Virus record (IMG/VR): IMGVR_UViG_3300040807_002082
Coordinates: 1 to 64,000 of that record
Origin: a virus
Direction: 5' to 3' (one strand)
DNA length: 64,000 bases
Shown: positions 790-61,222 of the stretch, one piece after another
Layout of the letters: each line of letters begins with the position of its first letter
Numbering within the stretch: position 1 is the first letter of the stretch
The notes under the pieces: model-generated
Seen by the model: only the letters and a program-made list of their open reading frames with translations
The model's database searches: none
What the model was told of the DNA's origin: nothing
Made by a program: the position numbers and the translations under genes

Positions 790-1700
790 TTTTTTATCAT
801 TCCTATAAAAGCTTTTATCACTTCAATCTCGTCCACTATATGCCGTTGATCTTGATTTGGTTTTGTTATAACACAGTCTCTTTCCCAATCGTATTGTCTT
901 ATTTTTCCTATTGGGCTTGACATAGAACCCCAAGTTGCTCTTTGAACTTCGTGTTCTTCAAGAACTCCTTCTCTTGTTCTAACCTCGTGGGTTTCAATTG
1001 GTACTGCATCAAAATGATGCCAAGCAATAGCCGGTATTCCAACCATCGCCGCAGTAAAATATGTAGCACCCGAATAGCAAAAGTGATAATCAGAATATCT
1101 CATAGTTTCGTACATTTCTTGTGCTGTCATTTTATAATCAATATATTTAATATAATATCCATATTGGTTTGCGTATTTTTTGACGAGTGGTAGAATTCTT
1201 TCTTCTGCTTCAACGACTTTGTCTCGCCTGCGCGGAGACATTAATCTCTCGGCTTTATGCACGGTTATGTAATTGCCCTGAGGATCCCATTGCTTTTCAA
1301 ACGGCCAAATTTGAGAATGCCTCCATTGCGTTGATTGAGAAGGATACGCATCGTGTGCTCGGTATATACTGATTATTGCGCCGTTCTTTGGTGCCTTTAA
1401 ATTCTTTATGAAATATAATACTGATTCGTATGCGGTTTCAGCATTTTCAGGTTTTCTTTTCCAATGCTTTGCTATTGTCCAAAGAACCGTTATATGAAGA
1501 GGCTCGTTTGTTACATGCTCATCTGCTAATTGCTGCGCATCTAAAAAGGCAGGACTAAGCAAACTCATAATCGTTGCGTGAGAATGAGATGTATGGTTGC
1601 AGAATCTAATTATTCGGGATTTTGCCGGGTCAGTTTTTATACCCGAAGGATCGCATCCTTTATAAATAGTTTCAAGGTGGGTTATATTCACAGTATTCAT
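786..1700 (-). CDS. hypothetical protein, possible GT-B glycosyltransferase (GT9-like C-terminus)
   Basis: 304 aa; YSGATYFTAAMVGIP resembles the GT9 DSG..H.AAA.G.P motif; first gene of kdsB operon. Confidence 0.5.
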   Translation of the reverse strand: MNTVNITHLETIYKGCDPSGIKTDPAKSRIIRFCNHTSHSHATIMSLLSPAFLDAQQLADEHVTNEPLHITVLWTIAKHWKRKPENAETAYESVLYFIKNLKAPKNGAIISIYRAHDAYPSQSTQWRHSQIWPFEKQWDPQGNYITVHKAERLMSPRRRDKVVEAEERILPLVKKYANQYGYYIKYIDYKMTAQEMYETMRYSDYHFCYSGATYFTAAMVGIPAIAWHHFDAVPIETHEVRTREGVLEEHEVQRATWGSMSSPIGKIRQYDWERDCVITKPNQDQRHIVDEIEVIKAFIGMIKK

Positions 1701-1705
1701 ACTGT

Positions 1706-1713
1706 TATTTATA
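1706..1713 (-). promoter_or_regulatory. T4-type late promoter TATAAATA, 5 nt before ATG (leaderless mRNA candidate)
   Basis: TATTTATA on + strand; TATAAATA-ACAGT-ATG on - strand. Confidence 0.7.
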
Positions 1714-1725
1714 AGGAGACCTTAA

Positions 1726-1887
1726 ATGATATCAGAAGAAAGAACCTGCAATAAATGTGGGCACCGCTGCCATTGCTATGCACCCAATTGTAAAGAATGT
1801 GTTAATGATGTGTGTGGAACTTGCGACTGCAAAGAACCAGATAGAACAGGAACGGATGCTAGAAATTGGGATGGATATTTAAAATAA
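1726..1887 (+). CDS. small Cys-rich metallothionein-like protein (53 aa, 9 Cys)
   Basis: Hand translation MISEERTCNKCGHRCHCYAPNCKECVNDVCGTCDCKEPDRTGTDARNWDGYLK; SD AAGGAG; TATAAATA at 1661. Confidence 0.75.
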   Translation: MISEERTCNKCGHRCHCYAPNCKECVNDVCGTCDCKEPDRTGTDARNWDGYLK

Positions 1888-2132
1888 AGGAGCCAAATGA
1901 TGTCGAAGAATGGGGTCGTCACTATCAGCGACTTATCGAAATTCAGTCTATCAAAAGAAGAATTGAAAAACTCAGGAAAGAACTTCATCCTTCACGACCC
2001 AGAACTTTGGAACGAGCAGGAAGCTTGGAGGAAAGGCCACGACCTGTGGAACCAGTACACCAGGACAAAGAAAGCAAAAGAAACGCAGAGTTAGATGCAA
2101 TTAAAGCAAAATTAACAGGAGGAAAGTTATGA
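1866..2132 (+). CDS. hypothetical coiled-coil protein
   Basis: 88 aa ORF; stop overlaps lipase start (ATGA). Confidence 0.55.
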   Translation: MGWIFKIKEPNDVEEWGRHYQRLIEIQSIKRRIEKLRKELHPSRPRTLERAGSLEERPRPVEPVHQDKESKRNAELDAIKAKLTGGKL

Positions 2133-2833
2133 TCTGTAACAAAATGGCTAGGTTGGCTGAACTTGCATACCTAGACGGTAAAGAAGCAAAACCTAAAATG
2201 AAGGCCTTGGGGTATACAGGTCATAAGTTTTTTGAAAACGATGGTGCACAGTGCCACGCGGTATGGACTAAAGAAGAATATGTTCTTGCGTTCCGCGGCA
2301 CCGAACCGTCTGAACTTTCAGATGTACTTGCCGATTTAAATGCAATCCCACGTGGTGCTATGACCCACGGGTTGGTACATTCAGGTTTTAGAAACGAATG
2401 CGATAAAATATGGGATGATATTGTATTGCACCACGGCAAAGGCCATACAACTAAAAAGCTTTATATCACAGGACATTCGTTAGGTGCTGCAATGGCAACC
2501 ATTGCTACATCACGTTTCGAAGAAGATATGAAAGTCGAACAGTTAACAACGTTTGGATCACCAAGAGTTGGTACTCGTAAATTTGTTAAGAATATTGAAA
2601 CAAAGCATATGCGGTTTGTTAATAACAACGATATCGTTACAAAGGTTCCACTATTCATTATGGGTTACAAGCACCATGGTGAATTACAATATATTAACTT
2701 CTATGGCAACATTCGCAAAATGACTGGGTGGCAGTTAATCAAGGATAGATGGCGTGGTTGGAAATCTGGAATTTTAGATGGAGCAAAAGATCATGGTATG
2801 GACAATTATGTCCGTTGTACTGAAGGAAAGTAA
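2129..2833 (+). CDS. class 3 lipase
   Basis: AFRGT, GLVHSGF, ITGHSLGAA nucleophile elbow, TFGSPRVG, DIVTKVP, C-terminal His. Confidence 0.92.
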   Translation: MICNKMARLAELAYLDGKEAKPKMKALGYTGHKFFENDGAQCHAVWTKEEYVLAFRGTEPSELSDVLADLNAIPRGAMTHGLVHSGFRNECDKIWDDIVLHHGKGHTTKKLYITGHSLGAAMATIATSRFEEDMKVEQLTTFGSPRVGTRKFVKNIETKHMRFVNNNDIVTKVPLFIMGYKHHGELQYINFYGNIRKMTGWQLIKDRWRGWKSGILDGAKDHGMDNYVRCTEGK

Positions 2834-2836
2834 TAA

Positions 2837-3229
2837 ATGGAAATGCTAACAAGAATGTTTGGAGATACGCTGTGGATTTATACGGCTATAGGTGGCTCGT
2901 TAATAGGTGCAGCGTTTTTAGCATGGTTTAGAAACACACACGCTGCGTTATGGCTAATGAGTAAGTTTGATTTGTTTTTAGACTCATTAGTTGACAAGTT
3001 TGGCTGGGATTTTTTACAAGATGACCCAGAAGCTTGGCGCAAAAGATACCCAAAAGTAACCAAAAAGATTGATGAGCTTGAAGCTCGGATCAAGGAACTC
3101 GAAGCGATGGCACACCCATCAAGAGAGCTTGAAGAGTTTTCCGCGTGGCCTGAGCTTGATCTTCGTATCAAAAATTTAGAAGAAGGTCGTAAAGCAAAGA
3201 TCATTCGACAGAAAGGAGAAAAAAAATGA
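2837..3229 (+). CDS. hypothetical protein, N-terminal TM helix and coiled coil
   Basis: 130 aa ORF with SD; hydrophobic N-terminus. Confidence 0.75.
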   Translation: MEMLTRMFGDTLWIYTAIGGSLIGAAFLAWFRNTHAALWLMSKFDLFLDSLVDKFGWDFLQDDPEAWRKRYPKVTKKIDELEARIKELEAMAHPSRELEEFSAWPELDLRIKNLEEGRKAKIIRQKGEKK

Positions 3230-3384
3230 TGGGATGGATTAAAGGAAGATTAATGGAACGCACATCTTGGGATGGCGCAATGTTAATCGGTGTTGGTCTT
3301 GTCGGTTTAATGATGCCACTTGACCTAGTTTCTTATGCAGCAATTGCGTGGGGAGCAGTTACATTACTCAAATCAGAAGAGTAA
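3226..3384 (+). CDS. small 2-TM membrane protein (52 aa, holin-like)
   Basis: Hand translation MMGWIKGRLMERTSWDGAMLIGVGLVGLMMPLDLVSYAAIAWGAVTLLKSEE; SD AAGGAG; ATGA overlap. Confidence 0.75.
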   Translation: MMGWIKGRLMERTSWDGAMLIGVGLVGLMMPLDLVSYAAIAWGAVTLLKSEE

Positions 3385-3687
3385 TTATTTTTTAGGCTTG
3401 TAATACTTATCGTATATAAAGCCTATTTGTCTACGTTCAGGATGCTTATGTATCCACTGACCGGTTGATGGATCAAACTTGTTCTTAAAAAAGTTATCCA
3501 TCTTCCGGTTTCCAGTCTTAATAGACGGATCTACTTTCAAACACATTGCGTCAAATTCAGAATCAGGAATAAGCGATTCGTTTTCAAATTCATAAGCATA
3601 CGCATAAACGCTTAATTTAATACGTAAACGGATTTGTTCTGATTTTAAATCCTCGGGTGTTTTCTCAACAAAATCTAATAGCGACAT
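3385..3687 (-). CDS. stand-alone NAD-dependent DNA ligase subdomain Ia-like protein
   Basis: AYAYEFENESLIPDSEFD resembles the YY..D.P.ISD.EYD motif of LigA domain Ia. Confidence 0.65.
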   Translation of the reverse strand: MSLLDFVEKTPEDLKSEQIRLRIKLSVYAYAYEFENESLIPDSEFDAMCLKVDPSIKTGNRKMDNFFKNKFDPSTGQWIHKHPERRQIGFIYDKYYKPKK

Positions 3688-5024
3688 TTAATTCTCATCT
3701 GTATTTGATTTTTAGGGCAGGTGGTTAACCGATGAGCAGGTTCAACATGTTGATGACCGTGTAACTCAAAATCATAATTCATAATCATATTTGCCATAAC
3801 AACAAGTGCTTCAGTTTGAGCAAATGCTGAACCTGCACAAATATGAGGTCCACCGCCAAACGGAATATACGTACCTGGGATTATCTTGTCTTTATTTTCA
3901 GGCAAAAATCTGTCAGGAATAAAAGCATTTGGTTTAACCCAATACTTATTGTGTCTATGTATTGCGTATGGAATTACTAATATTGATCTATCAGCAATTA
4001 ACTTATAGCCTTCAATTTCAATGTCTTGGCTTGGGCAACGAGGAAACACTGTACTTGGCGGATATAGTCTCAATGTTTCCTGAAAGAAGGCTTTTGTAAA
4101 TTCAAGCTTATTCAAATTCTTTTGAGTTAATCCTTCTTTATAAATCTGTTTGATTTCGGTCCGCATACGGCTAATGTGTTGTGGTTGTTGCGTAAGGATA
4201 TAAAATATCCATGTTAGTACACTTGCCGTAGTTTCGTGGCCAGATAAAAAGAATACTGTAAGTTGGTCAATAATCTCTTCTTTGCTAAAGCCGTTACCAT
4301 CTTTATCTTTTGCGTTAATAACAAGATGAGCAATGTTATCCTTACTCGTATTGTTTACGTATTCATATCCGATTTGACTACGGATCCTACGGCAGGCGCG
4401 ATAAAAGATAGGTGGTTGTTTTTGTATCCGACTAGGATTTGTTATAAAGGTAGCAATATCTCTTGATGAAACCAATCTTTTAAACAATGACCAATCATCA
4501 AACATTTGTCTAGAAACATGGTCACTGATTGGTTTACCGAACATCAAACGATACATAACGTCTGACGTTAGATAATACATCATATAATCAAGAGAGAAAG
4601 TCCTTGGCAAATTCTCAATGAACTCATTAACAGTTTCAAGAATTGTGTCAAAGGACTTTTGGGATCTTAAAGAATAATAAGCAGGCGCAAGCATTTGTTT
4701 ATCCTTTGCCCACTTTTCTCCGGTTGTAATGAATAGACTTTTGCCGCCAAGTTCTTCTATAGAACTAACCAATAAATCGCTTTTATAAAATAATCCTTTT
4801 TCATCCTGAAGGATTTCTTTTGCGATTTTAGGATTGTTAACTAAAAGACTTCCTTGTCTTCCGAAAGGAACAACGTCGAGATTAAACGCAGTATCAGGTA
4901 ACAATTCTAAAAAGTTACCGTCGCCTTTGTATGCAGATCTTGCTAAAGACTGTAGTTGATTGAGCGCAATTGGCTTTGGCGGAATATAATCCACATTAGA
5001 ACTCCCGAAGCAAAGCTGACGCAA
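3675..5024 (-). CDS. cytochrome P450 (probable start GTG at 4994)
   Basis: I-helix SGHETT, K-helix ETLR, PDRF, heme motif FGGGPHICAG; N-terminal PPKP. Confidence 0.95.
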   Translation of the reverse strand: MRQLCFGSSNVDYIPPKPIALNQLQSLARSAYKGDGNFLELLPDTAFNLDVVPFGRQGSLLVNNPKIAKEILQDEKGLFYKSDLLVSSIEELGGKSLFITTGEKWAKDKQMLAPAYYSLRSQKSFDTILETVNEFIENLPRTFSLDYMMYYLTSDVMYRLMFGKPISDHVSRQMFDDWSLFKRLVSSRDIATFITNPSRIQKQPPIFYRACRRIRSQIGYEYVNNTSKDNIAHLVINAKDKDGNGFSKEEIIDQLTVFFLSGHETTASVLTWIFYILTQQPQHISRMRTEIKQIYKEGLTQKNLNKLEFTKAFFQETLRLYPPSTVFPRCPSQDIEIEGYKLIADRSILVIPYAIHRHNKYWVKPNAFIPDRFLPENKDKIIPGTYIPFGGGPHICAGSAFAQTEALVVMANMIMNYDFELHGHQHVEPAHRLTTCPKNQIQMRIKCRY

Positions 5025-5250
5025 GCATAATTGACATAACGCTATTCAATACAATAAGTGATCTGTCTTTCCACATAACCGAAACCCATAACCATAACAA
5101 GGTTCCAAACGTACCAACCGCAAGGTCAAGCATACGCCATTCAGGTCCTGCTTGTCGGAAAGTTACAGATACTAGGATAGCAACAGTTGCCGCCCATTTA
5201 ATGTACCAAGAAAAATTTTCACCATACCACTTGTCATCAGGTTTCATCAT
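4996..5250 (-). CDS. small 3-TM membrane protein
   Basis: 84 aa, three hydrophobic segments, W..KW.AT and WKDRSLIVLN. Confidence 0.75.
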   Translation of the reverse strand: MMKPDDKWYGENFSWYIKWAATVAILVSVTFRQAGPEWRMLDLAVGTFGTLLWLWVSVMWKDRSLIVLNSVMSIMLASALLREF

Positions 5251-5488
5251 TATCCCTTAAAGTTTTCGCCTGCATATCAACCATATCTTGTACACTTGCG
5301 ATTGCCAATTCTACAATATTTTCACTAATTGGCTGCAAGTTACCTGAATATAAACCAATTACAATATTATCTTCAATTTTATTACGGTTTACTTTGCCAT
5401 TATCTAACGGAAGGTGAAGACGCTGCGACAGAATATCTAACGCTAACGCACCTGCCTGTCTTACTTCATATTTTTCCTGTTTTGTCAT
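5237..5488 (-). CDS. hypothetical protein
   Basis: 83 aa; preceded by TTGACA-17-TAGTAT promoter. Confidence 0.7.
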   Translation of the reverse strand: MTKQEKYEVRQAGALALDILSQRLHLPLDNGKVNRNKIEDNIVIGLYSGNLQPISENIVELAIASVQDMVDMQAKTLRDNDET

Positions 5489-5528
5489 AAGAGATCCTTA
5501 ATTCAATATAGTAATACTATACTATTAT

Positions 5529-6245
5529 TTAGGAGATGTCAACCATTTTTTTCCATTTTTCAACAGGCGGCAATGTTCGTTGATATGACATTGAATGATT
5601 ACGAGTAATTAAGATATCACCTGAAACACAGAATCTTGTCTTATACAAATCTTCTTTTGTTTTAAAACCTTGAATACCTGTAGGTTGATCTCCGTCGCGT
5701 ACTTCAACGTCGTGCGACAGGTCAGATGGGAAGATATACAAAACACCTTCGTTAACTTGAAGGTACACAACATTAGAATTTACCGAATCCCAGTCTGTTA
5801 CGTTATCGTTAAAGAAAAGGCCATATGGTTCGTTTGCGTGTTTGCCGTTTTTAAACAGCATCAGATCTCTTTCTTTACCTTCTGCAATGTGTGGATAATA
5901 TACAAAAGAGATATGGTTTTCAGCATGATCGTGTTTACGAATACCTGCCTCATTCGTTACATTAAAGAATGACTTTGTGATATGCAGGTCAATATTTTTT
6001 CTATTGATATGTAACCCATCAAGGTATTCATGAACCGCAGGATTCAAAACGTGTTGATAGAAAAAGGAAACAGAATCATCAAGGTGTAATTCTTCAAATC
6101 CGAGCCAATCGTGAGATTCACCATTTTGATTTGAATGCTTTAGAAATAAATCAAACCACAGTTCTTTTTCTTCTTGTCTAACCGTGCGATCTAATTTTGT
6201 TACGACCGTCGGAAATAATAATATATGTTCCATTTTTAATCCCAA
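5529..6245 (-). CDS. 2OG-Fe(II) oxygenase, TIGR02466-like
   Basis: LFPT start, HDH..NHISFVYY, IFPSDLSH.V, R..VS. Confidence 0.8.
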   Translation of the reverse strand: MGLKMEHILLFPTVVTKLDRTVRQEEKELWFDLFLKHSNQNGESHDWLGFEELHLDDSVSFFYQHVLNPAVHEYLDGLHINRKNIDLHITKSFFNVTNEAGIRKHDHAENHISFVYYPHIAEGKERDLMLFKNGKHANEPYGLFFNDNVTDWDSVNSNVVYLQVNEGVLYIFPSDLSHDVEVRDGDQPTGIQGFKTKEDLYKTRFCVSGDILITRNHSMSYQRTLPPVEKWKKMVDIS

Positions 6246-6883
6246 AGGTTTTCATAATACTTTCCGAATAATCGGAATCCATTGTTCATTCTTTCTTGAT
6301 GTGCTTTTCGGCCTTCATCATCTGTCCATTCAAAGCGGCCGCCCATTATGCTGCCATCTTCACTTTGAATATACGGGCCGTAATAATCTTCTTCCCAAGA
6401 ATCGCGGCATTTTTGCTCAAATGCCCAAATCATTTCGTCCATAATCCAATCCCAACGATCAAAAAACTTTTCGTCAGTTTCGCCGTTTGACCGAAATGCT
6501 TTGCTTTCAGGATCATTAATTCGCAATTCTTCTGGCACATCAGTCATATCAACATTTGGAGCACCTTGCTTAGTTTCTTTTAATTGTTTGAGCATTGAAA
6601 GTATAATTGGAGCAAGAGTATGATCCATGCTCCAAGTGTCATACCGGTCAATACGAACTTTAACTTTTTGTTCTTTGCGATCAAGATACAAGTTGATTGA
6701 ACGGTTATAGATCCACTGTAACACATCTTCTGTTTTTTCTAAAAAGTTTTCAAAACGTGTCTGTGTTTCAGGCCAATCGGTGTAGACGTCATACTTTTTT
6801 TTCATGTAACGGTCGTGTACACAACTTACCCAACGGTTTACATATGGTCCAATATAAACTTTCATTATATAAACAACTCCCAA
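6236..6883 (-). CDS. conserved phage hypothetical protein
   Basis: 215 aa; DTWSMDHTLA, WDWIMDEMIWAF, GFRLFGKYY. Confidence 0.8.
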   Translation of the reverse strand: MGVVYIMKVYIGPYVNRWVSCVHDRYMKKKYDVYTDWPETQTRFENFLEKTEDVLQWIYNRSINLYLDRKEQKVKVRIDRYDTWSMDHTLAPIILSMLKQLKETKQGAPNVDMTDVPEELRINDPESKAFRSNGETDEKFFDRWDWIMDEMIWAFEQKCRDSWEEDYYGPYIQSEDGSIMGGRFEWTDDEGRKAHQERMNNGFRLFGKYYENLWD

Positions 6884-7374
6884 CTTGGATGCTTAATTGT
6901 AAATTCCATCTGTTTTCTTTTACGAACCAATTCCCAATATCCTGGGCGGTATGGTTTATATTTAGGCTTCCAATCCATTCGGTTGCCTTTCGTCGAGTTG
7001 CAAGGATTACATGCTGCAACAATATTAGTCCACTCGGTTTTACCACCCCTACTAATTGGAATCACGTGGTCCATAGTTAAGTGAGTACGGCCAAAGTCGT
7101 TTCCGCAGTATTGGCATTTATACTGATCGCGTAAATAAAGGTTAGATTTTGAAAACCTAACCTCTGTCTTTGATTTGATATATTGTTTCATCATAATCAC
7201 GGCGGGAACTTTGGTTTCCCAAGAGGGGCTCCGGACTAGCCAATCGTCGTACCATTCTAATACGTCACACTTATTGTGGTACATGTATCTGATAGCTTCT
7301 TTCCAATTAATAACACTGAGTGGTAAATAGTTGACGGGTTGAGCATTTGCGTTTAGAATCAAAACGTCGGACAA
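6865..7374 (-). CDS. HNH endonuclease (McrA-like)
   Basis: RD.Y.CQYCG...TMDHVIP.SRGG...W.N.VAAC..CN..K. Confidence 0.92.
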   Translation of the reverse strand: MSDVLILNANAQPVNYLPLSVINWKEAIRYMYHNKCDVLEWYDDWLVRSPSWETKVPAVIMMKQYIKSKTEVRFSKSNLYLRDQYKCQYCGNDFGRTHLTMDHVIPISRGGKTEWTNIVAACNPCNSTKGNRMDWKPKYKPYRPGYWELVRKRKQMEFTIKHPSWELFI

Positions 7375-27033: not shown

Positions 27034-27212
27034 TGCTTCTACACCTTTTCGTTTCTCCCATGGCTGCCTACTTCATGACTTTGGTGTGGGCAGCCATTTT
27101 TGGTAATACTGCAGGTACATCTGAGCTTATGATAGAAGAATGGATCATATGTATACAGTTATACCTTGGTGTTGCACTTATGATACAATTTAAGAAATCT
27201 TCAAAAGAATAG
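27033..27212 (+). CDS. small membrane protein
   Basis: TAATG coupling; two hydrophobic segments. Confidence 0.55.
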   Translation: MLLHLFVSPMAAYFMTLVWAAIFGNTAGTSELMIEEWIICIQLYLGVALMIQFKKSSKE

Positions 27213-27247
27213 TTGACATTTCCGTGTTTTTGTATTATATATAGACT

Positions 27248-27550
27248 GTGGACGTTGAAACAAAATAAAGACGGATCGGACTCGGGTGCGATTCCCGACG
27301 CCTCCACCAAAAGCACACAGTCTACTGGTGAATGAGATAACAATGCTCATAATAAAAGTCCAAACTGTGTGTTTTTGATGGGGGCGAATTAGGATCGACG
27401 GACGTAATAGTTGAGTGGAGTTCACCGTGTTGACCTACGTTATTCGGTCAAACAAACTAAATGCAAACGATAACTTTGCACCATCTGAATCATTTGCTCT
27501 AGCAGCATGATCACAGGGGGCTGGCCACTTGCCTAGCAACAGAAAAGTGG
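27248..27550 (+). ncRNA. ssrA: two-piece (circularly permuted) tmRNA, alphaproteobacterial type
   Basis: Acceptor 3' end GACTCGGGTGCGATTCCCGACGCCTCCACCA (to 27309) precedes the 5' end GGGGGCGAATTAGGATCGAC (27380); tag frame 27463-27510 ANDNFAPSESFALAA*; GCAACAGAA 3' hairpin; TTGACA promoter at 27213. Confidence 0.93.
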
Positions 27551-27583
27551 TTTTTTATGCACATAAAAAAGAAAGGACAAAAG

Positions 27584-28458: not shown

Positions 28459-29022
28459 ATGGAGGATGACATGTCTTTGAAATTAAAAGAACTTACGTGG
28501 GCTCATCACCAAGCAGCAGAAAGAAGAGCGTTTGCTAAACAGCTTTTAAGTGGTAAAATTGAACCAAAGCTGTATCATAAGTTCTTGTGTTGCCAATATT
28601 TGAATTATCAAATTCTTGAGTCATACACAGAAGTACCATCGCATTTATTACCGATAAGAAGAGAATCACGTATCTGGACAGACATCCGTGAGCTTGAGGT
28701 AGAATACGATTTAACACCCGATGGAAATTACCCTCAATCCGTCGAGGATTATAACAAACATATTAAGAGTCTTGCTGAAAAAGGAGATCAACACGGTCTT
28801 CTTGCGCATATGTATGTACGTCATTTTGGCGATTTACATGGCGGTCAGATGATTAAAAAACGAGTTCCTGGTTCTGGTAAAATGTATGAGTTTGAACTCG
28901 AAAAAGAATATCTCATTGAGGAATTTCGTAAATATCTTGATGACGATATGGCTGAGGAAGCGAAAATATGTTTTGATTTTGCATCTCAGCTTTTTGATGA
29001 ATTGTCTAAAGAAATAGATTGA
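28459..29022 (+). CDS. hemO: heme oxygenase (HemO type; probable start 28471)
   Basis: LKELTWAHHQAAE proximal His helix, YVRHFGDLHGGQMI distal helix, EA..CF; TATAAATA at 28438. Confidence 0.92.
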   Translation: MEDDMSLKLKELTWAHHQAAERRAFAKQLLSGKIEPKLYHKFLCCQYLNYQILESYTEVPSHLLPIRRESRIWTDIRELEVEYDLTPDGNYPQSVEDYNKHIKSLAEKGDQHGLLAHMYVRHFGDLHGGQMIKKRVPGSGKMYEFELEKEYLIEEFRKYLDDDMAEEAKICFDFASQLFDELSKEID

Positions 29023-29249: not shown

Positions 29250-29452
29250 TGACAAGTTATTTGACAGAAGTAAAGGAGGATCCCCTTAACGGGGACCTCT
29301 ACATCGAGTTCCCACCAGAATTTTTAGAAGAATTAGGATGGGGAGAAAACGACGAACTGATTTGGGAACAAACCGATCTTGGTTGGTCAATAAGGAAAAA
29401 TGAAGATGCATCCATTATGGATCAGGCTCGAAAAACTGGCGACCAATCTTAG
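29249..29452 (+). CDS. AbrB/MazE/SpoVT-like small DNA-binding protein
   Basis: DLYIEFPPEFLEELGWGENDELIW. Confidence 0.75.
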   Translation: MTSYLTEVKEDPLNGDLYIEFPPEFLEELGWGENDELIWEQTDLGWSIRKNEDASIMDQARKTGDQS

Positions 29453-30089
29453 CAAAAAATTTGACGAGCATTTTACAAAATGGGATAATCCAAAATACGA
29501 TGATAGTCTAAAGTTTCCTGGATGGAAAGACGATTTTTGGTTATCTCCTTTAATTCGTAAAGCGCATTTAAAAACAATCGTACCTGAGGACGGTAAAGGA
29601 TTGTGGCTAATGCATGTGAATGTATTTCCACGCGAAGGTATTGAATTGCCAATCCTTGGGTTTGATATTGTAGCAGGTCCTAAAAAGATTACAGGATCTT
29701 TTATGGATTTTAGCCCATTACACGGTCATCCACATCCGTACCATGATTATATGGAAATGGTAGTTAAAAATCTTGAATGGGTTAAAGCAAGAGAATTACC
29801 ACCTTGGGCAAAAGAAATCTTTTCAGAGGATATGATTGCAGTTGGTAACATTAATACAGACGAAGAATTAAATCAATTCATTGACGTCACGACAGATCTT
29901 ACAGATTATTATTTAGATAACATTGTAAAAAATGCGTTCAGGTCAAATCGCGATACAAAACCAATTCTAAACAAATATTGCTTTAATCAAAAAATGAATC
30001 CACATTTACATCGTTCAATTGAAGCAATGGGCATCTCAAAACAAGATAAGAATCGTTACGTTGATACTATTTTATTTGAGGAGATATAA
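29400..30089 (+). CDS. pcyX: ferredoxin-dependent bilin reductase (PcyX/PcyA type)
   Basis: IRKAHL, LWLMHV.VFP, PILGFDIVAGPKKITG.F.DFSP, LPPWAKEIFS, YC.NQK.NPH. Confidence 0.88.
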   Translation: MKMHPLWIRLEKLATNLSKKFDEHFTKWDNPKYDDSLKFPGWKDDFWLSPLIRKAHLKTIVPEDGKGLWLMHVNVFPREGIELPILGFDIVAGPKKITGSFMDFSPLHGHPHPYHDYMEMVVKNLEWVKARELPPWAKEIFSEDMIAVGNINTDEELNQFIDVTTDLTDYYLDNIVKNAFRSNRDTKPILNKYCFNQKMNPHLHRSIEAMGISKQDKNRYVDTILFEEI

Positions 30090-34327: not shown

Positions 34328-35745
34328 TGATTGAGAAAACAGTTTTAACTAACCTTATATTTAATGAAGATTATTATCGTCGAGTGTATCCATACATTAA
34401 GTCTGAATACTTTGATGATATTAGTCATAAGAAAATCTTTGATACTTATTCACATTATGTTGAAGAATTTAAGGAGCCTCCGTCAATTGAGGCTCTGAAA
34501 ATTTCTATTGATAAACGCAAAGATTTGAATGAAGATGCCTATAAGAATGTAATGGATCAAGTTTCCGAAATGAAACGAGATCCTGATACTAATCTTGATT
34601 GGCTGGTTAGTGAAACTGAAAAGTTCTGTCAAGACAAGGATTTGTTTAATGCTATTCGCAAAGCAATCCTTGTTATTGATGGAGAAGATAAAGAACTGGA
34701 TAAAGGTTCATTACCTGAGCTTTTATCTAATTCGCTCTCAATTAGTTTTGATACTTCTATTGGTCATGATTATCTTGAAGATTATGAAGGCCGATATGAT
34801 TTCTATCACAAGAAAGAAGAACGCCTTCCGTTTGATATTGACCTTCTAAACAAGGTCACTAAAGGCGGCTTACCACGCAAGTCAATGTCTGTGCTCCTTG
34901 CAACAACCGGCGGTGGTAAGTCGCTCGTCAAATGTCATATGGCTGCAAGCTATTTGATGCACGGTAAGAATGTTCTTTACATTACAATGGAAATGGCCGA
35001 AGAACGTATTGCTGAACGTATTGACGCCAATATGATGGATGTTACCATTGACGAATTAAAAGAACTCCCCAGAGATGTTTACGAAAAAAGAATTGGTCGT
35101 ATTCAATCAAAAACAACGGGCAAGCTTGTCGTTAAGGAATATCCAACAGGTTCGGCACACGTCGGCCATTTCCGCCATTTATTAAATGAACTACGTATGA
35201 AACGTGGTTTTACCCCTGATGTTGTCTTTATTGACTATCTAAATATTTGTGCAAGCGCTCGAGTAAAAGGTGCCGCTGCAGCTAATTCATATACACTTGT
35301 AAAATCAATTGCGGAGGAAGTTCGTGGCCTTGCTATGGAGTATAATTGCGCTGTCGTTACTAGTTCTCAGTTTAACCGCGACGGCTACGGGAACTCAGAC
35401 GTTGACCTTACTAACACTTCTGAGTCTATGGGGATCACTCATACTGCTGACTGTATCCTCGGCTTAATTACATCAGAAGATCTTGATAATCTTGGTCAAC
35501 TTATGATTAAGCAACTTAAAAATCGTTGGGGCGACTTGAGTTATTACCGTCGGTTTGTTGTCGGTATTGACCGAGCAAAAATGAAAATCTATGACCTTGA
35601 AGATTCAGCTCAGAACGGAGTTTCTCAAGACGGACCGCAGGCAGGCAAATTGCCAAAGCCTGATAACGATGCTCCGATATTTGACAAAGGTTCATTTGGT
35701 ACAAAAAGTAAGAAAGGACTGTTTTCTGCAGGAGATTTAATGTGA
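34327..35745 (+). CDS. 41: replicative DNA helicase gp41
   Basis: Walker [30 protein letters not shown]. Confidence 0.95.
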
Positions 35746-36086
35746 CGTATTTAGTTACGGACAACTGTATAAAATGTAAACATACCGATTGTGTTGCAGT
35801 TTGTCCGGTTGATTGTTTTTATGAAGGTGACGATATGCTTGTAATTGATCCAGACGAATGTATTGATTGCGGTGTGTGCGTTCCTGAATGTCCTGTTGAT
35901 GCTATCATTGCAGATGTAGATTTGCCCGAACCTGATAGATCTAAATGGATTGAAATTAATACTGTGTATAGCGACAAGTGGCGCTATAACAATATTACCG
36001 AGCAAAAAGATCCGTTACCCGATGCTGAAGATTGGGACGGAGTACCAAATAAGTATGAAGCGTTCATGGATAAGGAGATAAAATGA
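35742..36086 (+). CDS. fdxA: ferredoxin, FdxA family (7Fe/8Fe)
   Basis: [21 protein letters not shown]...[16 protein letters not shown]. Confidence 0.93.
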
Positions 36087-59373: not shown

Positions 59374-60582
59374 GTGAGTTATATTATGGATTACTTGCAA
59401 TATTTTGAGGATACGATAAAAGACTTTAAATCCGATGGACGATATAGAGTCTTTAACGATATCATTCGAGAAAAAGGAAATTTTCCTAAAGCAATATGGT
59501 ATGGTAAGTATGCTCCAAAAAATATTGTAAATTGGTGCTCTAATGATTATCTAGGTATGGGTCAAAACCAATATGTTATTGATGCCATGCACACTGCGTT
59601 AGACCAAACAGGCGCAGGTTCTGGCGGTACTCGTAACATCGGCGGGACATCCCAATATCACGTTACCCTTGAGCGGGAACTTGCGCTGCTTCACAACAAA
59701 GAGGCGGCGCTTCTTTTTTCTTCGGCATATGTAGCAAATGAATGGTCGATTATTGCTCTTAGCCGTATTATACCAAATATTTGTTATATTTCGGATACAA
59801 AGAATCATGCTTCTATTATTATGGGTGTTAAGCATAGCCGAGCACCGAAGCATTTGTTTGAACATAACAATATGCAAGACTTGGAAGAAAAACTCGAAAC
59901 CGCAGTTAAGAATAACCAAATCCCTTGTATTCTATTTGAGTCAGTTTATTCCATGGACGGTGATGTATCACCCATCAAAGACATCTGTGATTTAGCAGAT
60001 AAATATGGGGCAATAACTTATATTGATGAAGTTCATGCAGTTGGTTTGTATGGAGACACCGGCGCAGGTTATTGCGAACAGTTAGGTCTCCAAGATAGGA
60101 TAACAATTATAAATGGAACATTGGGAAAAGCCTTTGGGGTTCAAGGTGGGTATATTGCTGGCGATCGCATTGTTACTGACGCTATTCGGTCCGTGGCTTC
60201 TGGGTTCATCTTTACAACAAGTATCTCGCCCGCAATCTGCGCAGGTGCTATTGCCTCCATCAAATATCTCCGTGACCATCCTTCCCTCCGCAGAAGACAT
60301 CAGAAAAAAGCAGAACAATTAAAGTATCTGCTCGGCCACGAAGATATTCATATTCATCAAAACGCGTGCACACATATCGTACCCGTGATGGTTAACGATG
60401 CGTTTAAATGTAAAGCCGCGAGTGACCGTCTATTGAATGATTATGGAATTTATATTCAACCAATTAACAGTCCTACAGTTGATCCTGGTACTGAAAGATT
60501 ACGTATTGCGCCAACCCCTTATCACGACGATATAATGGTTATTGAATTGGTTACTGCATTGAAAGAAGTACTATGTGGGTGA
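59374..60582 (+). CDS. hemA: 5-aminolevulinate synthase (Shemin/C4 pathway)
   Basis: [64 protein letters not shown]. Confidence 0.95.
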
Positions 60583-60749
60583 TAAGAAATAAAGAAGGCG
60601 AATTGATTGGTATGTCTCCACGTAAAGAAGAAGCAATTAATATGGCTGAAAGAAACTATAAACGTGATGAATATATAATTGAAGAAGCGTTAGATCAGAT
60701 TGAGTTGTTTCAAATCTATCGTTCTTATTATAAAACGAGGTCAATATGA
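60573..60749 (+). CDS. 58-aa hypothetical protein
   Basis: Hand translation [28 protein letters not shown]...; overlaps both neighbours. Confidence 0.6.
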
Positions 60750-61222
60750 ATCAACTTGAAGCCGCATTTTTCGGCAAAACAATATGGAAGAAAGAGAATA
60801 AGATGACTAAATTGAAAAAAGCATTCTGGTTTGTACTTGGTATTTTGTGTTTGGGTATTGCATACCTAGGCGTAATTCTACCAGGTATTCCGTGGAGTAC
60901 CCCGATCCTTGGCGCAGCATTTTGCTTTGCTAAGTCGAGCGAAAAGTTCCACAATTGGATTATGAACCATAAACTGTTTGGACCATTCATTACCGAATGG
61001 CAAACGTATAAAGTATATCCACAAAAAGGCAAGTATATTATGATGGCGGTTATGTCAACATCACTTGCCGTAATGTGGTTTGGTACAGGCAATCCGATGG
61101 CAACGTTATACTTGTTTATCTTGTTTGCTTTGATTGTTACGTGGGCATGGAGATTTCCAGGTTCGAAAGAAGAAGCACAGCGTCGTATTGATGCAGGAGA
61201 GAAGCTTGGCTGGTTTAAATAA
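60746..61222 (+). CDS. ybaN: YbaN/DUF454 inner-membrane protein
   Basis: G..LPG.P...P...AA.CF.KSS..FH.W..NH..FGP.I..W. Confidence 0.88.
   Translation: MNQLEAAFFGKTIWKKENKMTKLKKAFWFVLGILCLGIAYLGVILPGIPWSTPILGAAFCFAKSSEKFHNWIMNHKLFGPFITEWQTYKVYPQKGKYIMMAVMSTSLAVMWFGTGNPMATLYLFILFALIVTWAWRFPGSKEEAQRRIDAGEKLGWFK

What the first reader, a model, noticed from the sequence alone, without database searches (positions are those of the whole stretch)
3675..5024. Intact cytochrome P450 in a bacteriophage, converging on a lipase operon
Seen: all P450 signatures intact and AT-rich codon usage like the rest of the genome, so it appears ameliorated. It is co-transcribed with a 3-TM protein and a ligase-Ia-like gene from a TTGACA promoter near 5540. 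It abuts tail-to-tail a late operon with a class 3 lipase and membrane proteins. Established: viral P450s are known mostly from giant eukaryotic viruses and are very rare in phages. Inference: it may oxidise fatty acids or lipids released by the lipase, or destroy a host signal or antiphage metabolite.
Basis: partly seen in the sequence, partly recalled or inferred. Interest (0 to 1): 0.78.

Follow-up and report, generated by a model that had tools for sequence, protein, structure and literature searches.

The report
Phototroph-derived cytochrome P450 in estuarine phage
An uncultured T4-like estuarine phage carries an intact, selected cytochrome P450 as an optional cargo gene; its nearest cellular relatives sit in the photosynthesis gene clusters of aerobic anoxygenic phototrophic bacteria, so it more likely acts on a host pigment or isoprenoid lipid than on products of the neighbouring lipase.

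Summary
The window encodes an intact cytochrome P450 on the minus strand (Pfam 231 bits, all four signature motifs, confident P450 fold). The likely start is GTG 4994, giving 439 aa, not TTG 5024.

The record is a 77.7-kb fragment of a T4-like phage. Independent metagenome contigs bridge both gene junctions, so the locus is not chimeric. Listed differences between two co-occurring alleles give a rough pN/pS of about 0.13. Metatranscriptome contigs cover the operon.

The lipase link is not supported. More than 40 related phage contigs keep the lipase operon without a P450. The closest relatives hold a glycosyltransferase-like or methyltransferase gene in the same slot, so the P450 is exchangeable cargo.

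Its only close cellular relatives (36-44% identity) form an uncharacterised family. That family lies beside a CrtD-type carotenoid desaturase, a 250-aa membrane protein and an ATP-grasp gene. All 10 bacterial genomes tested also carry pufLM reaction-centre genes. The tree nests the phage clade inside Halieaceae, but the AU test does not exclude a sister position (p = 0.07).

The phage also encodes an FdxA ferredoxin, ALA synthase, heme oxygenase and a bilin reductase.

Best reading: a host-derived auxiliary monooxygenase acting on a pigment or isoprenoid lipid. The substrate is unproven. It is a new member of a known kind.

The parts
3675..4994 (-). Cytochrome P450 coding sequence, 439 aa, GTG start. 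The longest ORF runs to TTG 5024.
   Evidence: Pfam PF00067, 231 bits. Motifs invariant in alignment A1. SD GGGAG 7 nt upstream of GTG 4994. 439-aa products throughout the 90% cluster. P450 fold with pTM 0.88.
4996..5250 (-). 84-aa three-TM protein (DUF6552), directly upstream and translationally close to the P450. It is independent small cargo, not a P450 partner.
   Evidence: PF20189, 49.9 bits. Found in 18 IMG/VR contigs with no P450 nearby. No profile similarity to the bacterial 250-aa membrane partner (hhalign probability 0.3%).
5237..5488 (-). 83-aa backbone gene, first gene behind the promoter-like site.
   Evidence: Homologues at 39-46% identity in syntenic relatives that lack the P450.
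5514..5542 (-). Sigma-70-like promoter candidate TTGACA-17-TAGTAT.
   Evidence: Best match in 1500-6500 at 10 of 12. This is a consensus match only; the number of such sites in the region is not above chance.
3385..3687 (-). 100-aa Nlig-Ia-like protein. Its start overlaps the P450 stop by 13 nt. It is a backbone gene.
   Evidence: PF22745, 37.3 bits. Conserved in 16 or more IMG/VR contigs and in syntenic relatives without the P450.
5529..6245 (-). 2OG-Fe(II) oxygenase, separate cargo in the next slot (between p83 and p215).
   Evidence: PF13759 and phrog_81. Absent between the p83 and p215 homologues of relatives L118, L119, L124, L125 and L151.
1661..3384 (+). Late-type promoter TATAAATA plus the Cys-rich 53-aa, 88-aa, class-3 lipase, 130-aa and 52-aa genes. 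This is a convergent neighbour that is NOT functionally tied to the P450.
   Evidence: TATAAATA at 1661. Lipase_3, 79 bits. Operon conserved without the P450 in 40 contigs.
35742..36086 (+). 7Fe FdxA-type ferredoxin, candidate electron donor for the P450 (inference).
   Evidence: NF045490 FdxA, 156 bits against a cut-off of 135. Fer4 plus DUF3470.
59374..60582 (+). 5-aminolevulinate synthase, a possible supply of heme precursor (inference).
   Evidence: TIGR01821, 557 bits against a cut-off of 338.55. 53% identical to an ORF lying next to the P450 orthologue in locus L053.

Best explanation
The gene is a functional heme-thiolate monooxygenase carried as exchangeable cargo (an auxiliary metabolic gene) in a hypervariable slot of the early region of a T4-like estuarine phage.

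It descends from, or is the sister of, an uncharacterised bacterial P450 family. That family is embedded in the photosynthesis and carotenoid gene clusters of aerobic anoxygenic phototrophs. On the maximum-likelihood tree it sits closest to Halieaceae (OM60/NOR5).

Proposed working, all inferred:
- It is transcribed early, together with p83, DUF6552 and the Nlig-Ia-like gene.
- It takes electrons from the phage FdxA ferredoxin or a host ferredoxin, with heme supply supported by the phage ALA synthase.
- It hydroxylates or oxidises a long hydrophobic host isoprenoid. The most likely target is an acyclic carotenoid of the spirilloxanthin type, or another pigment of the photosynthetic membrane. 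This would keep or alter that membrane's function during infection.

Confidence by layer:
- Real, intact, selected cargo P450: about 0.95.
- Origin in the photosynthesis-cluster-linked family: about 0.8.
- Pigment or isoprenoid substrate: about 0.4.
For: Shown:
- P450 identity and fold.
- Phage backbone of the record: topoisomerase II, gp43 polymerase, gp41 helicase, RNR.
- Independent DNA contigs from two other samples bridge 2215-3878, 3031-3788, 4943-6500 and 4943-6492.
- Two alleles co-occur. Of 30 listed differences, 20 are synonymous and 10 non-synonymous, giving pN/pS about 0.13.
- Four diverged phage-type lineages (91, 74 and 59% identity) keep every motif.
- Metatranscriptome contigs cover the P450-DUF6552 and P450-NligIa junctions.
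- Cargo status is shown by synteny with relatives.

The bacterial family:
- The top cellular hits are all 36-44% identical and come from Halieaceae and other phototroph lineages.
- Among 81 loci, a 250-aa membrane protein is adjacent in 76, a CrtD-type desaturase in 65, an ATP-grasp gene in 62, and BchI/BchD in about 21. The CrtD call rests on NF045637, 636 bits against a cut-off of 580.
- pufL and pufM are present in 10 of 10 genomes tested, against 1 of 14 control genomes. They lie within about 15 kb of the P450 in several.

Placement: the careful tree nests the phage clade in Halieaceae with 98/85 to 100/99 support.

The best PDB sequence hits are the carotene hydroxylases CYP97A3 and CYP97C1.

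The phage FdxA, ALA synthase, heme oxygenase and bilin reductase are confirmed.
Against: - No substrate evidence exists for the bacterial family. I found no paper on it.
- The phage fragment carries none of the bacterial partner genes: CrtD, the membrane protein or the ATP-grasp gene.
- The stem leading to the phage clade is very long (1.8-2.9 substitutions per site) and its composition is skewed, so the function may have shifted.
- The AU test does not reject the phage clade lying outside the whole bacterial family (p = 0.0695).
- Structural neighbours include fatty-acid hydroxylases as much as carotenoid hydroxylases.
- Host signals conflict. The phage has an alphaproteobacterial-type permuted tmRNA and ALA synthase, whereas the P450 points to gammaproteobacterial Halieaceae.
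- Only about 37% of the genome is in hand.
- RNA-library contigs do not prove transcription.
Confidence: 0.45

Rival explanations
1. Fatty-acid or lipid hydroxylase that works on products of the neighbouring class-3 lipase.
For: The genes are adjacent, stop-to-stop. The closest solved folds include CYP184A1 with oleic acid and the fatty-acid hydroxylase P450 BM3. CYP4B1 is among the sequence hits.
Against: The lipase operon is conserved in 40 related contigs without the P450. The P450 slot holds unrelated cargo in the closest relatives. The orientation is convergent and the promoter types differ. The bacterial orthologues sit in photosynthesis and carotenoid clusters, not lipid-catabolic ones. 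Identity to CYP102 and CYP4 is only about 20-30%.
Confidence: 0.15
2. The link to photosynthesis gene clusters is real, but the substrate is another pigment-pathway molecule (a bacteriochlorophyll or tetrapyrrole intermediate, a quinone or a prenyl chain) rather than a carotenoid.
For: The family lies near bchI/bchD and pufLM. The phage carries ALA synthase, heme oxygenase and a bilin reductase, all of them tetrapyrrole enzymes. An ALA synthase sits next to the P450 in L053.
Against: The tightest conserved enzyme neighbour is a CrtD-type carotenoid desaturase, in 65 of 81 loci. The best sequence matches in the PDB are carotene hydroxylases.
Confidence: 0.15
3. Counter-defence or signal destruction: the P450 oxidises a host signalling molecule or an antiphage small metabolite.
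For: It is placed among early genes in a hypervariable cargo slot, where phages often keep host-takeover genes. The long stem branch is compatible with a change of function.
Against: There is no positive evidence. No defence-related neighbours are present, and the nearest relatives are biosynthetic-cluster enzymes.
Confidence: 0.1
4. Assembly chimera, bacterial contamination, or a decaying passenger gene.
For: Contigs inside the gene are fragmented in the Logan assemblies.
Against: The fragmentation is explained by two co-occurring alleles. Contigs from independent samples bridge both junctions with 0-7 differences. GC is phage-like. pN/pS is about 0.13. All catalytic motifs are kept down to 59% identity.
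Confidence: 0.02

Closest known systems
Uncharacterised P450 family of aerobic anoxygenic phototrophs (for example Congregibacter litoralis, Luminiphilus syltensis NOR5-1B and HTCC2080; annotated only as 'cytochrome P450', once as 'putative cytochrome P450 4V3')
   Same: 36-44% identity over the full length. The N-terminal YIPPKP...GDGN(L/F)LELLP block and all catalytic motifs are shared. The phage clade falls inside or next to this family on the tree.
   Different: The phage copy lacks the conserved neighbours: the 250-aa membrane protein, the CrtD-type desaturase and the ATP-grasp gene. It has several short deletions, AT-rich composition and a very long stem branch.
P450 of Mycobacterium phage Adler, the bacteriophage P450 named in the literature I read (PMC9405906). 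Earlier notes of this scan call it CYP102L1, a name I did not verify.
   Same: A cytochrome P450 encoded by a tailed phage.
   Different: Only 23% identity. It is from an actinobacterial siphovirus. No co-encoded redox partner was reported for viral P450s (PMC9405906), whereas this phage also encodes an FdxA ferredoxin.
CYP97A3 / CYP97C1 plant carotene ring hydroxylases (PDB 6L8I, 6J94, 6L8H)
   Same: Best sequence matches among solved structures (E 2.5e-35). CYP97C1 is among the top fold matches. They act on C40 carotenoids.
   Different: Only the C-terminal half aligns well, at about 30% identity. They are plastid enzymes acting on ionone rings, and identity is below the 40% convention for a CYP family.
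CYP184A1 (Streptomyces avermitilis, PDB 7WZL/7WZM) and CYP102A1 P450 BM3 heme domain
   Same: Best structural matches, TM about 0.8. Same E-class AGHETT I-helix type.
   Different: 18-22% identity. They are fatty-acid hydroxylases. BM3 is fused to its reductase, whereas the phage protein is a stand-alone heme domain.
Cyanophage pigment and photosynthesis auxiliary genes (psbA, ho1, pebS/pcyA) and CrtA spheroidene monooxygenase. This comparison is from general knowledge and PMC10604819.
   Same: The concept of a phage carrying a host photosynthesis-linked gene. CrtA is an O2- and ferredoxin-dependent heme carotenoid oxygenase encoded beside bchI/bchD.
   Different: No sequence relation. CrtA is not a P450. 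An anoxygenic-phototroph host is inferred here, not shown.

Membership tests
Cytochrome P450 superfamily (PF00067) | Profile match above the curated cut-off | tested here: met
   231 bits against 22.8, covering positions 41-448 of 462.
Cytochrome P450 superfamily (PF00067) | Cys-ligand loop FxxGxxxCxG, ExxR, PxRF, and I-helix (A/G)Gx(D/E)T(T/S) | tested here: met
   FGGGPHICAG (C386), ETLR, PDRF and SGHETT are all invariant in A1.
Cytochrome P450 superfamily (PF00067) | P450 fold | tested here: met
   AF2 pTM 0.88. Foldseek E about 1e-20 and TM about 0.8 to CYP184A1, BM3 and CYP97C1.
Cytochrome P450 superfamily (PF00067) | Heme binding with a 450-nm CO-difference spectrum | not testable with these tools
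   Needs purified protein.
Photosynthesis-gene-cluster-linked P450 family of aerobic anoxygenic phototrophs (unnamed) | At least 40% identity (the CYP family convention) | tested here: met
   43.8% to L003 (Luminiphilus) over 452 columns. 41-44% to Halieaceae members and 36-40% to others. The match is marginal.
Photosynthesis-gene-cluster-linked P450 family of aerobic anoxygenic phototrophs (unnamed) | Phylogenetic placement inside the family | tested here: inconclusive
   The ML tree nests it in Halieaceae (98/85, 100/99). The AU test does not reject a placement outside all bacterial rows (p = 0.0695).
Photosynthesis-gene-cluster-linked P450 family of aerobic anoxygenic phototrophs (unnamed) | Adjacent 250-aa DUF2306-like membrane protein, CrtD-type desaturase and ATP-grasp gene | tested here: not met
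   tblastn of these proteins against the 77.7-kb phage record gives nothing below E = 0.28. The DUF6552 neighbour is unrelated. Only about 37% of the phage genome is in hand.
CYP102 / CYP4 / CYP97 families | At least 40% identity to members | tested here: not met
   18-30% identity to BM3, CYP4B1, CYP97A3 and CYP97C1.
Phage auxiliary metabolic gene | A metabolic gene of cellular origin, flanked on both sides by phage genes, variable among related phages, and under purifying selection | tested here: met
   Synteny and slot variability. Junction-bridging contigs. pN/pS about 0.13. Cellular relatives.

The most novel reading that the evidence does not exclude
This would be a phage of an aerobic anoxygenic phototroph that reprograms its host's anoxygenic photosynthetic pigment apparatus. 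It would use:
- a P450 captured from the host photosynthesis gene cluster (carotenoid or pigment oxidation);
- ALA synthase (tetrapyrrole flux);
- heme oxygenase plus a PcyX-type bilin reductase (a chromophore for bacteriophytochrome-type regulators of the cluster);
- its own FdxA ferredoxin to drive all three redox enzymes.

That would make it the anoxygenic counterpart of the cyanophage photosynthesis gene sets. It would also be the first virus known to co-encode a P450 with a redox partner.
Probability: 0.2. Interest if true: 0.85.

Novelty: new member of a known kind. Interest (0 to 1): 0.55.

Why it matters
Published viral P450s are almost all from giant viruses, and none has a known substrate or a virus-encoded redox partner (PMC9405906). 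This P450 has four features that make it tractable:
- It is demonstrably maintained by selection.
- It recurs in many estuarine metagenomes.
- It is present in metatranscriptome assemblies.
- It sits in a genome that also supplies a ferredoxin and a heme-precursor enzyme.

Its cellular relatives also reveal a conserved, unstudied four-gene module in the photosynthesis gene clusters of aerobic anoxygenic phototrophs from three phyla: a CrtD-type desaturase, a membrane protein, the P450 and an ATP-grasp gene.

Solving the bacterial function would likely fill a gap in carotenoid or pigment biosynthesis. It would also show what the phage gains. If the host is a phototroph, this would extend the idea of phages carrying photosynthesis genes from cyanobacteria to anoxygenic phototrophs.

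Tried and rejected
The contexts of the phage-type relatives could therefore not be read. These are P0002, P0003 and P0004, including a 209-kb ENA contig that holds P0403.
2. Two metagenome-contig scans and two IMG/VR scans for P450 relatives found nothing apart from one unrelated 28%-identical P450 (L002).
3. I tested whether the DUF6552 neighbour is a remnant of the bacterial 250-aa membrane partner. It is not: blastp gave nothing and hhalign gave probability 0.3%.
4. I looked for other photosynthesis-cluster genes in the phage. blastp of all 265 phage ORFs against the ORFs of the 81 bacterial loci hit only the P450, the ALA synthase (one locus, L053) and weakly the DUF454 protein.
5. I tried to infer the host from the tmRNA. 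A DNA search of 401 alphaproteobacterial genomes matched only short conserved segments and was uninformative.
6. The literature searches I ran for a P450 in photosynthesis gene clusters or Halieaceae carotenoid pathways found nothing relevant. One search was wasted by a loose term setting.
7. My first ORF-clustering of the bacterial neighbourhoods was confounded by antisense shadow ORFs in high-GC DNA. I replaced it with reference-protein mapping.
8. RNA-run contigs give almost no cover of the lipase operon (2000-2750). I do not use this as evidence that it is silent.
9. The joint 2591>5956 in run X12 (side 27) is too short to count as a P450-less variant.
Full report
**What is there**

The minus-strand ORF 3675-5024 is a cytochrome P450. 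It scores 231 bits against Pfam PF00067, E 3e-68. The four signature elements are present and invariant in an alignment with phage-type and bacterial relatives:
- I-helix SGHETT
- ETLR
- PDRF
- heme loop FGGGPHICAG, with Cys386

An AlphaFold2 model (pLDDT 83.6, pTM 0.88) superposes on solved P450s at TM about 0.8.

The longest ORF starts at TTG 5024, but the real start is most probably GTG 4994.
- It lies one base after the TAA stop of the upstream gene and 7 nt after a GGGAG.
- It gives the 439-aa length and the MDYIPPKP start shared by all members of the 90% cluster. That cluster includes the product called on the 77,680-bp contig itself.

**The genome**

The window is the first 64 kb of a 77.7-kb IMG/VR virus record that CheckV estimates to be about 37% complete. 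It is T4-like:
- both topoisomerase II subunits, gp43 polymerase, gp41-type helicase, an SbcC-like nuclease and RNR;
- the polymerase is about 45% identical to those of cyanomyoviruses;
- four tRNAs;
- an alphaproteobacterial-type permuted tmRNA (RF01849, 110 bits).

**Is it an artefact?**

No. At least 14 estuary metagenome runs hold 90% or more of the sampled words of 2800-6300.

In two runs not flagged as possible sources, contigs bridge both ends of the gene into its phage neighbours, with 0-7 differences. The bridging spans are 2215-3878 and 4943-6500 in X12, and 3031-3788 and 4943-6492 in X8.

Inside the gene the assemblies split into two alleles about 8% apart. Of the 30 differences the tool listed inside the gene, 20 are synonymous and 10 are not, so pN/pS is about 0.13. 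The list was truncated, so this is a rough figure. The second allele carries the substitutions of P0002, which is 91% identical.

Gene GC is 36.1% against 38.6% for the window.

Two metatranscriptome assemblies contain pieces that span the DUF6552/P450 and P450/Nlig-Ia junctions. This is compatible with an early polycistronic RNA but does not prove it.

**Local anatomy**

On the minus strand the order is:
1. 2OG-Fe(II) oxygenase (6245-5529)
2. the best sigma-70-like site of the region, TTGACA-17-TAGTAT (5542-5514)
3. an 83-aa gene
4. the 3-TM DUF6552 protein
5. the P450
6. a 100-aa Nlig-Ia-like protein whose start overlaps the P450 stop

The plus-strand operon behind TATAAATA at 1661 ends at 3384, one base from the end of the minus-strand unit. 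It holds a Cys-rich 53-aa gene, an 88-aa gene, the class-3 lipase, a 130-aa gene and a 52-aa gene.

**The lipase link fails**

The lipase has 40 relatives at 72-92% identity in IMG/VR. None of those contigs encodes a relative of the P450.

The seven closest relatives (L117-L120, L124, L125, L151) share this gene order: lipase, p130, p52, then on the opposite strand Nlig-Ia, p83, p215, HNH, epimerase, CHAP, p173 and topoisomerase.

In those relatives the slot just upstream of Nlig-Ia holds different genes:
- a 274-aa GT25-like gene, or
- a CMAS-like methyltransferase.

The 2OG oxygenase is also missing from them.

DUF6552 occurs in 18 other viral contigs without a P450. The P450 is therefore exchangeable cargo in a hypervariable slot, and its position beside the lipase operon carries no functional weight.

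**Where it came from**

Three metagenomic clusters (91, 74 and 59% identity) form a tight clade with the window protein. Their members lie on contigs of up to 77 kb and 209 kb.

All other close relatives are bacterial, at 36-44% identity. Halieaceae (Luminiphilus, Congregibacter, Chromatocurvus, HTCC2080) rank highest. At 50% clustering the next P450 families drop to about 34% or less.

I mapped reference proteins from HTCC2080 onto 81 bacterial loci. The neighbours of the P450 are:

| Neighbour | Loci (of 81) |
|---|---|
| 250-aa DUF2306-like membrane protein, directly adjacent | 76 |
| CrtD-type desaturase | 65 |
| ATP-grasp gene | 62 |
| Magnesium chelatase bchI/bchD, within 8 kb | about 21 |

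- The membrane protein is divergent from the P450 in Proteobacteria and co-directional and overlapping in Gemmatimonas. It is annotated only as hypothetical.
- The CrtD assignment rests on NCBIfam NF045637, 636 bits against a cut-off of 580.

All 10 bacterial genomes I tested carry both reaction-centre genes pufL and pufM, often within about 15 kb of the P450. Only 1 of 14 control genomes does. The ten were a Novosphingobium, a Brevundimonas, a Gemmatimonadaceae MAG, a Roseomonas, Phycosocius, Luminiphilus syltensis, a Roseibium, a Burkholderiales MAG and two Gammaproteobacteria MAGs.

So the family belongs to the photosynthesis gene clusters of aerobic anoxygenic phototrophs. The searches I ran found no paper describing it.

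**Phylogeny**

A careful LG+C20 tree with nine outgroup P450s places the phage clade inside Halieaceae. With it goes another long-branch metagenomic protein, P0243.
- The clade is sister to a Luminiphilus sequence, with 98/85 support.
- The Halieaceae-plus-phage set has 100/99 support.

There are caveats. The stem is very long, the phage rows have deviant composition, and an AU test does not reject a tree with all bacterial rows together (p = 0.0695, delta lnL 18.9). I therefore treat a Halieaceae donor as favoured, not shown.

**Mechanism**

The enzyme class is shown. The rest is inferred.

The bacterial context points to a long hydrophobic isoprenoid, most simply an acyclic carotenoid. The best PDB sequence hits agree, being the carotene hydroxylases CYP97A3 and CYP97C1. 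The best fold hits are the fatty-acid hydroxylases CYP184A1 and BM3, so chain-like lipids in general remain possible.

The phage took only the P450 and none of its cluster partners. This fits an auxiliary gene that acts on a host-made substrate.

The same phage encodes:
- an FdxA 7Fe ferredoxin (NF045490);
- ALA synthase (TIGR01821);
- a heme oxygenase;
- a ferredoxin-dependent bilin reductase.

These are a plausible electron donor and heme supply. The one paper I read on viral P450s states that no viral genome with a P450 had a known redox partner (PMC9405906).

The phage ALA synthase is 53% identical to a gene that lies next to the P450 orthologue in one Geminicoccaceae locus. This is a single case.

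**Host**

The host is unresolved. The tmRNA type and ALA synthase suggest an alphaproteobacterium, while the P450 suggests Halieaceae. A tmRNA search was uninformative.

**Novelty**

In the literature phage P450s are nearly unknown. In this scan, however, 55 earlier notes in at least 40 genomes report other phage P450s, of CYP153-type, CYP203A-like and other kinds. None resembles this sequence.

The new points are:
- the family of origin and its link to anoxygenic phototrophy;
- the clean demonstration that the gene is cargo;
- the co-encoded ferredoxin and heme genes.

I rate it a new member of a known kind, of moderate interest.

Noticed in passing
L003-L082 (for example L011:5654-10548): A conserved, apparently unstudied module occurs in bacteria of three phyla: a CrtD-type desaturase, a 250-aa DUF2306-like membrane protein, a P450 and an ATP-grasp gene. 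All 10 genomes tested also carry pufLM, often within about 15 kb. It may be a missing step of pigment biosynthesis in aerobic anoxygenic phototrophs.
   Followed up: partly
window 27209-27553 (+): The phage encodes an alphaproteobacterial-type circularly permuted tmRNA (Rfam RF01849 110 bits, RF04321 126 bits). ARAGORN did not report it.
   Followed up: partly
window 59374-60582, 60746-61222, 28459-29022, 29400-30089, 35742-36086: ALA synthase (TIGR01821, 557 bits), a DUF454/YbaN protein, heme oxygenase, a ferredoxin-dependent bilin reductase and an FdxA ferredoxin are all confirmed by profile searches. This is a tetrapyrrole gene set of the kind described for aquatic phages in PMC11480375.
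   Followed up: partly
window 6865-7374 (-) and L118:10440-10949: The HNH endonuclease is 93% identical to that of related phages, while the flanking genes are only 64-67% identical. This suggests a recently spread homing endonuclease.
   Followed up: no
L118:8870-9694, L117:6199-6879, L120:2262-2954: The slot that holds the P450 in this phage holds a GT25-like glycosyltransferase or a CMAS-like methyltransferase in the closest relatives. It is a hotspot for swapping enzyme cargo.
   Followed up: partly
L053:9448-10677 (-): In a Geminicoccaceae MAG, an ALA synthase 53% identical to the phage's lies directly next to, and convergent with, the P450 orthologue.
   Followed up: no
protein P0243 (cluster of 5, contigs of 7-14 kb): A very long-branch metagenomic P450, 39% identical and with skewed composition, groups with the phage clade at 100/99 support. 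It may be a further viral lineage, but its context could not be read.
   Followed up: no
window 3849-4942: Two P450 alleles about 8% apart in DNA co-occur in the same estuary samples. The second corresponds to P0002.
   Followed up: partly
L002:22-1371: An 11.3-kb IMG/VR contig encodes an unrelated P450, 28% identical. It was the only other hit in 2.9 million viral contigs with the family patterns.
   Followed up: no
L011:7935-9341 (-): A 468-aa antisense ORF exactly shadows the bacterial P450 gene and appears to sit in operon-like register with the minus-strand neighbours. It has no Pfam match and is probably a high-GC shadow ORF.
   Followed up: partly
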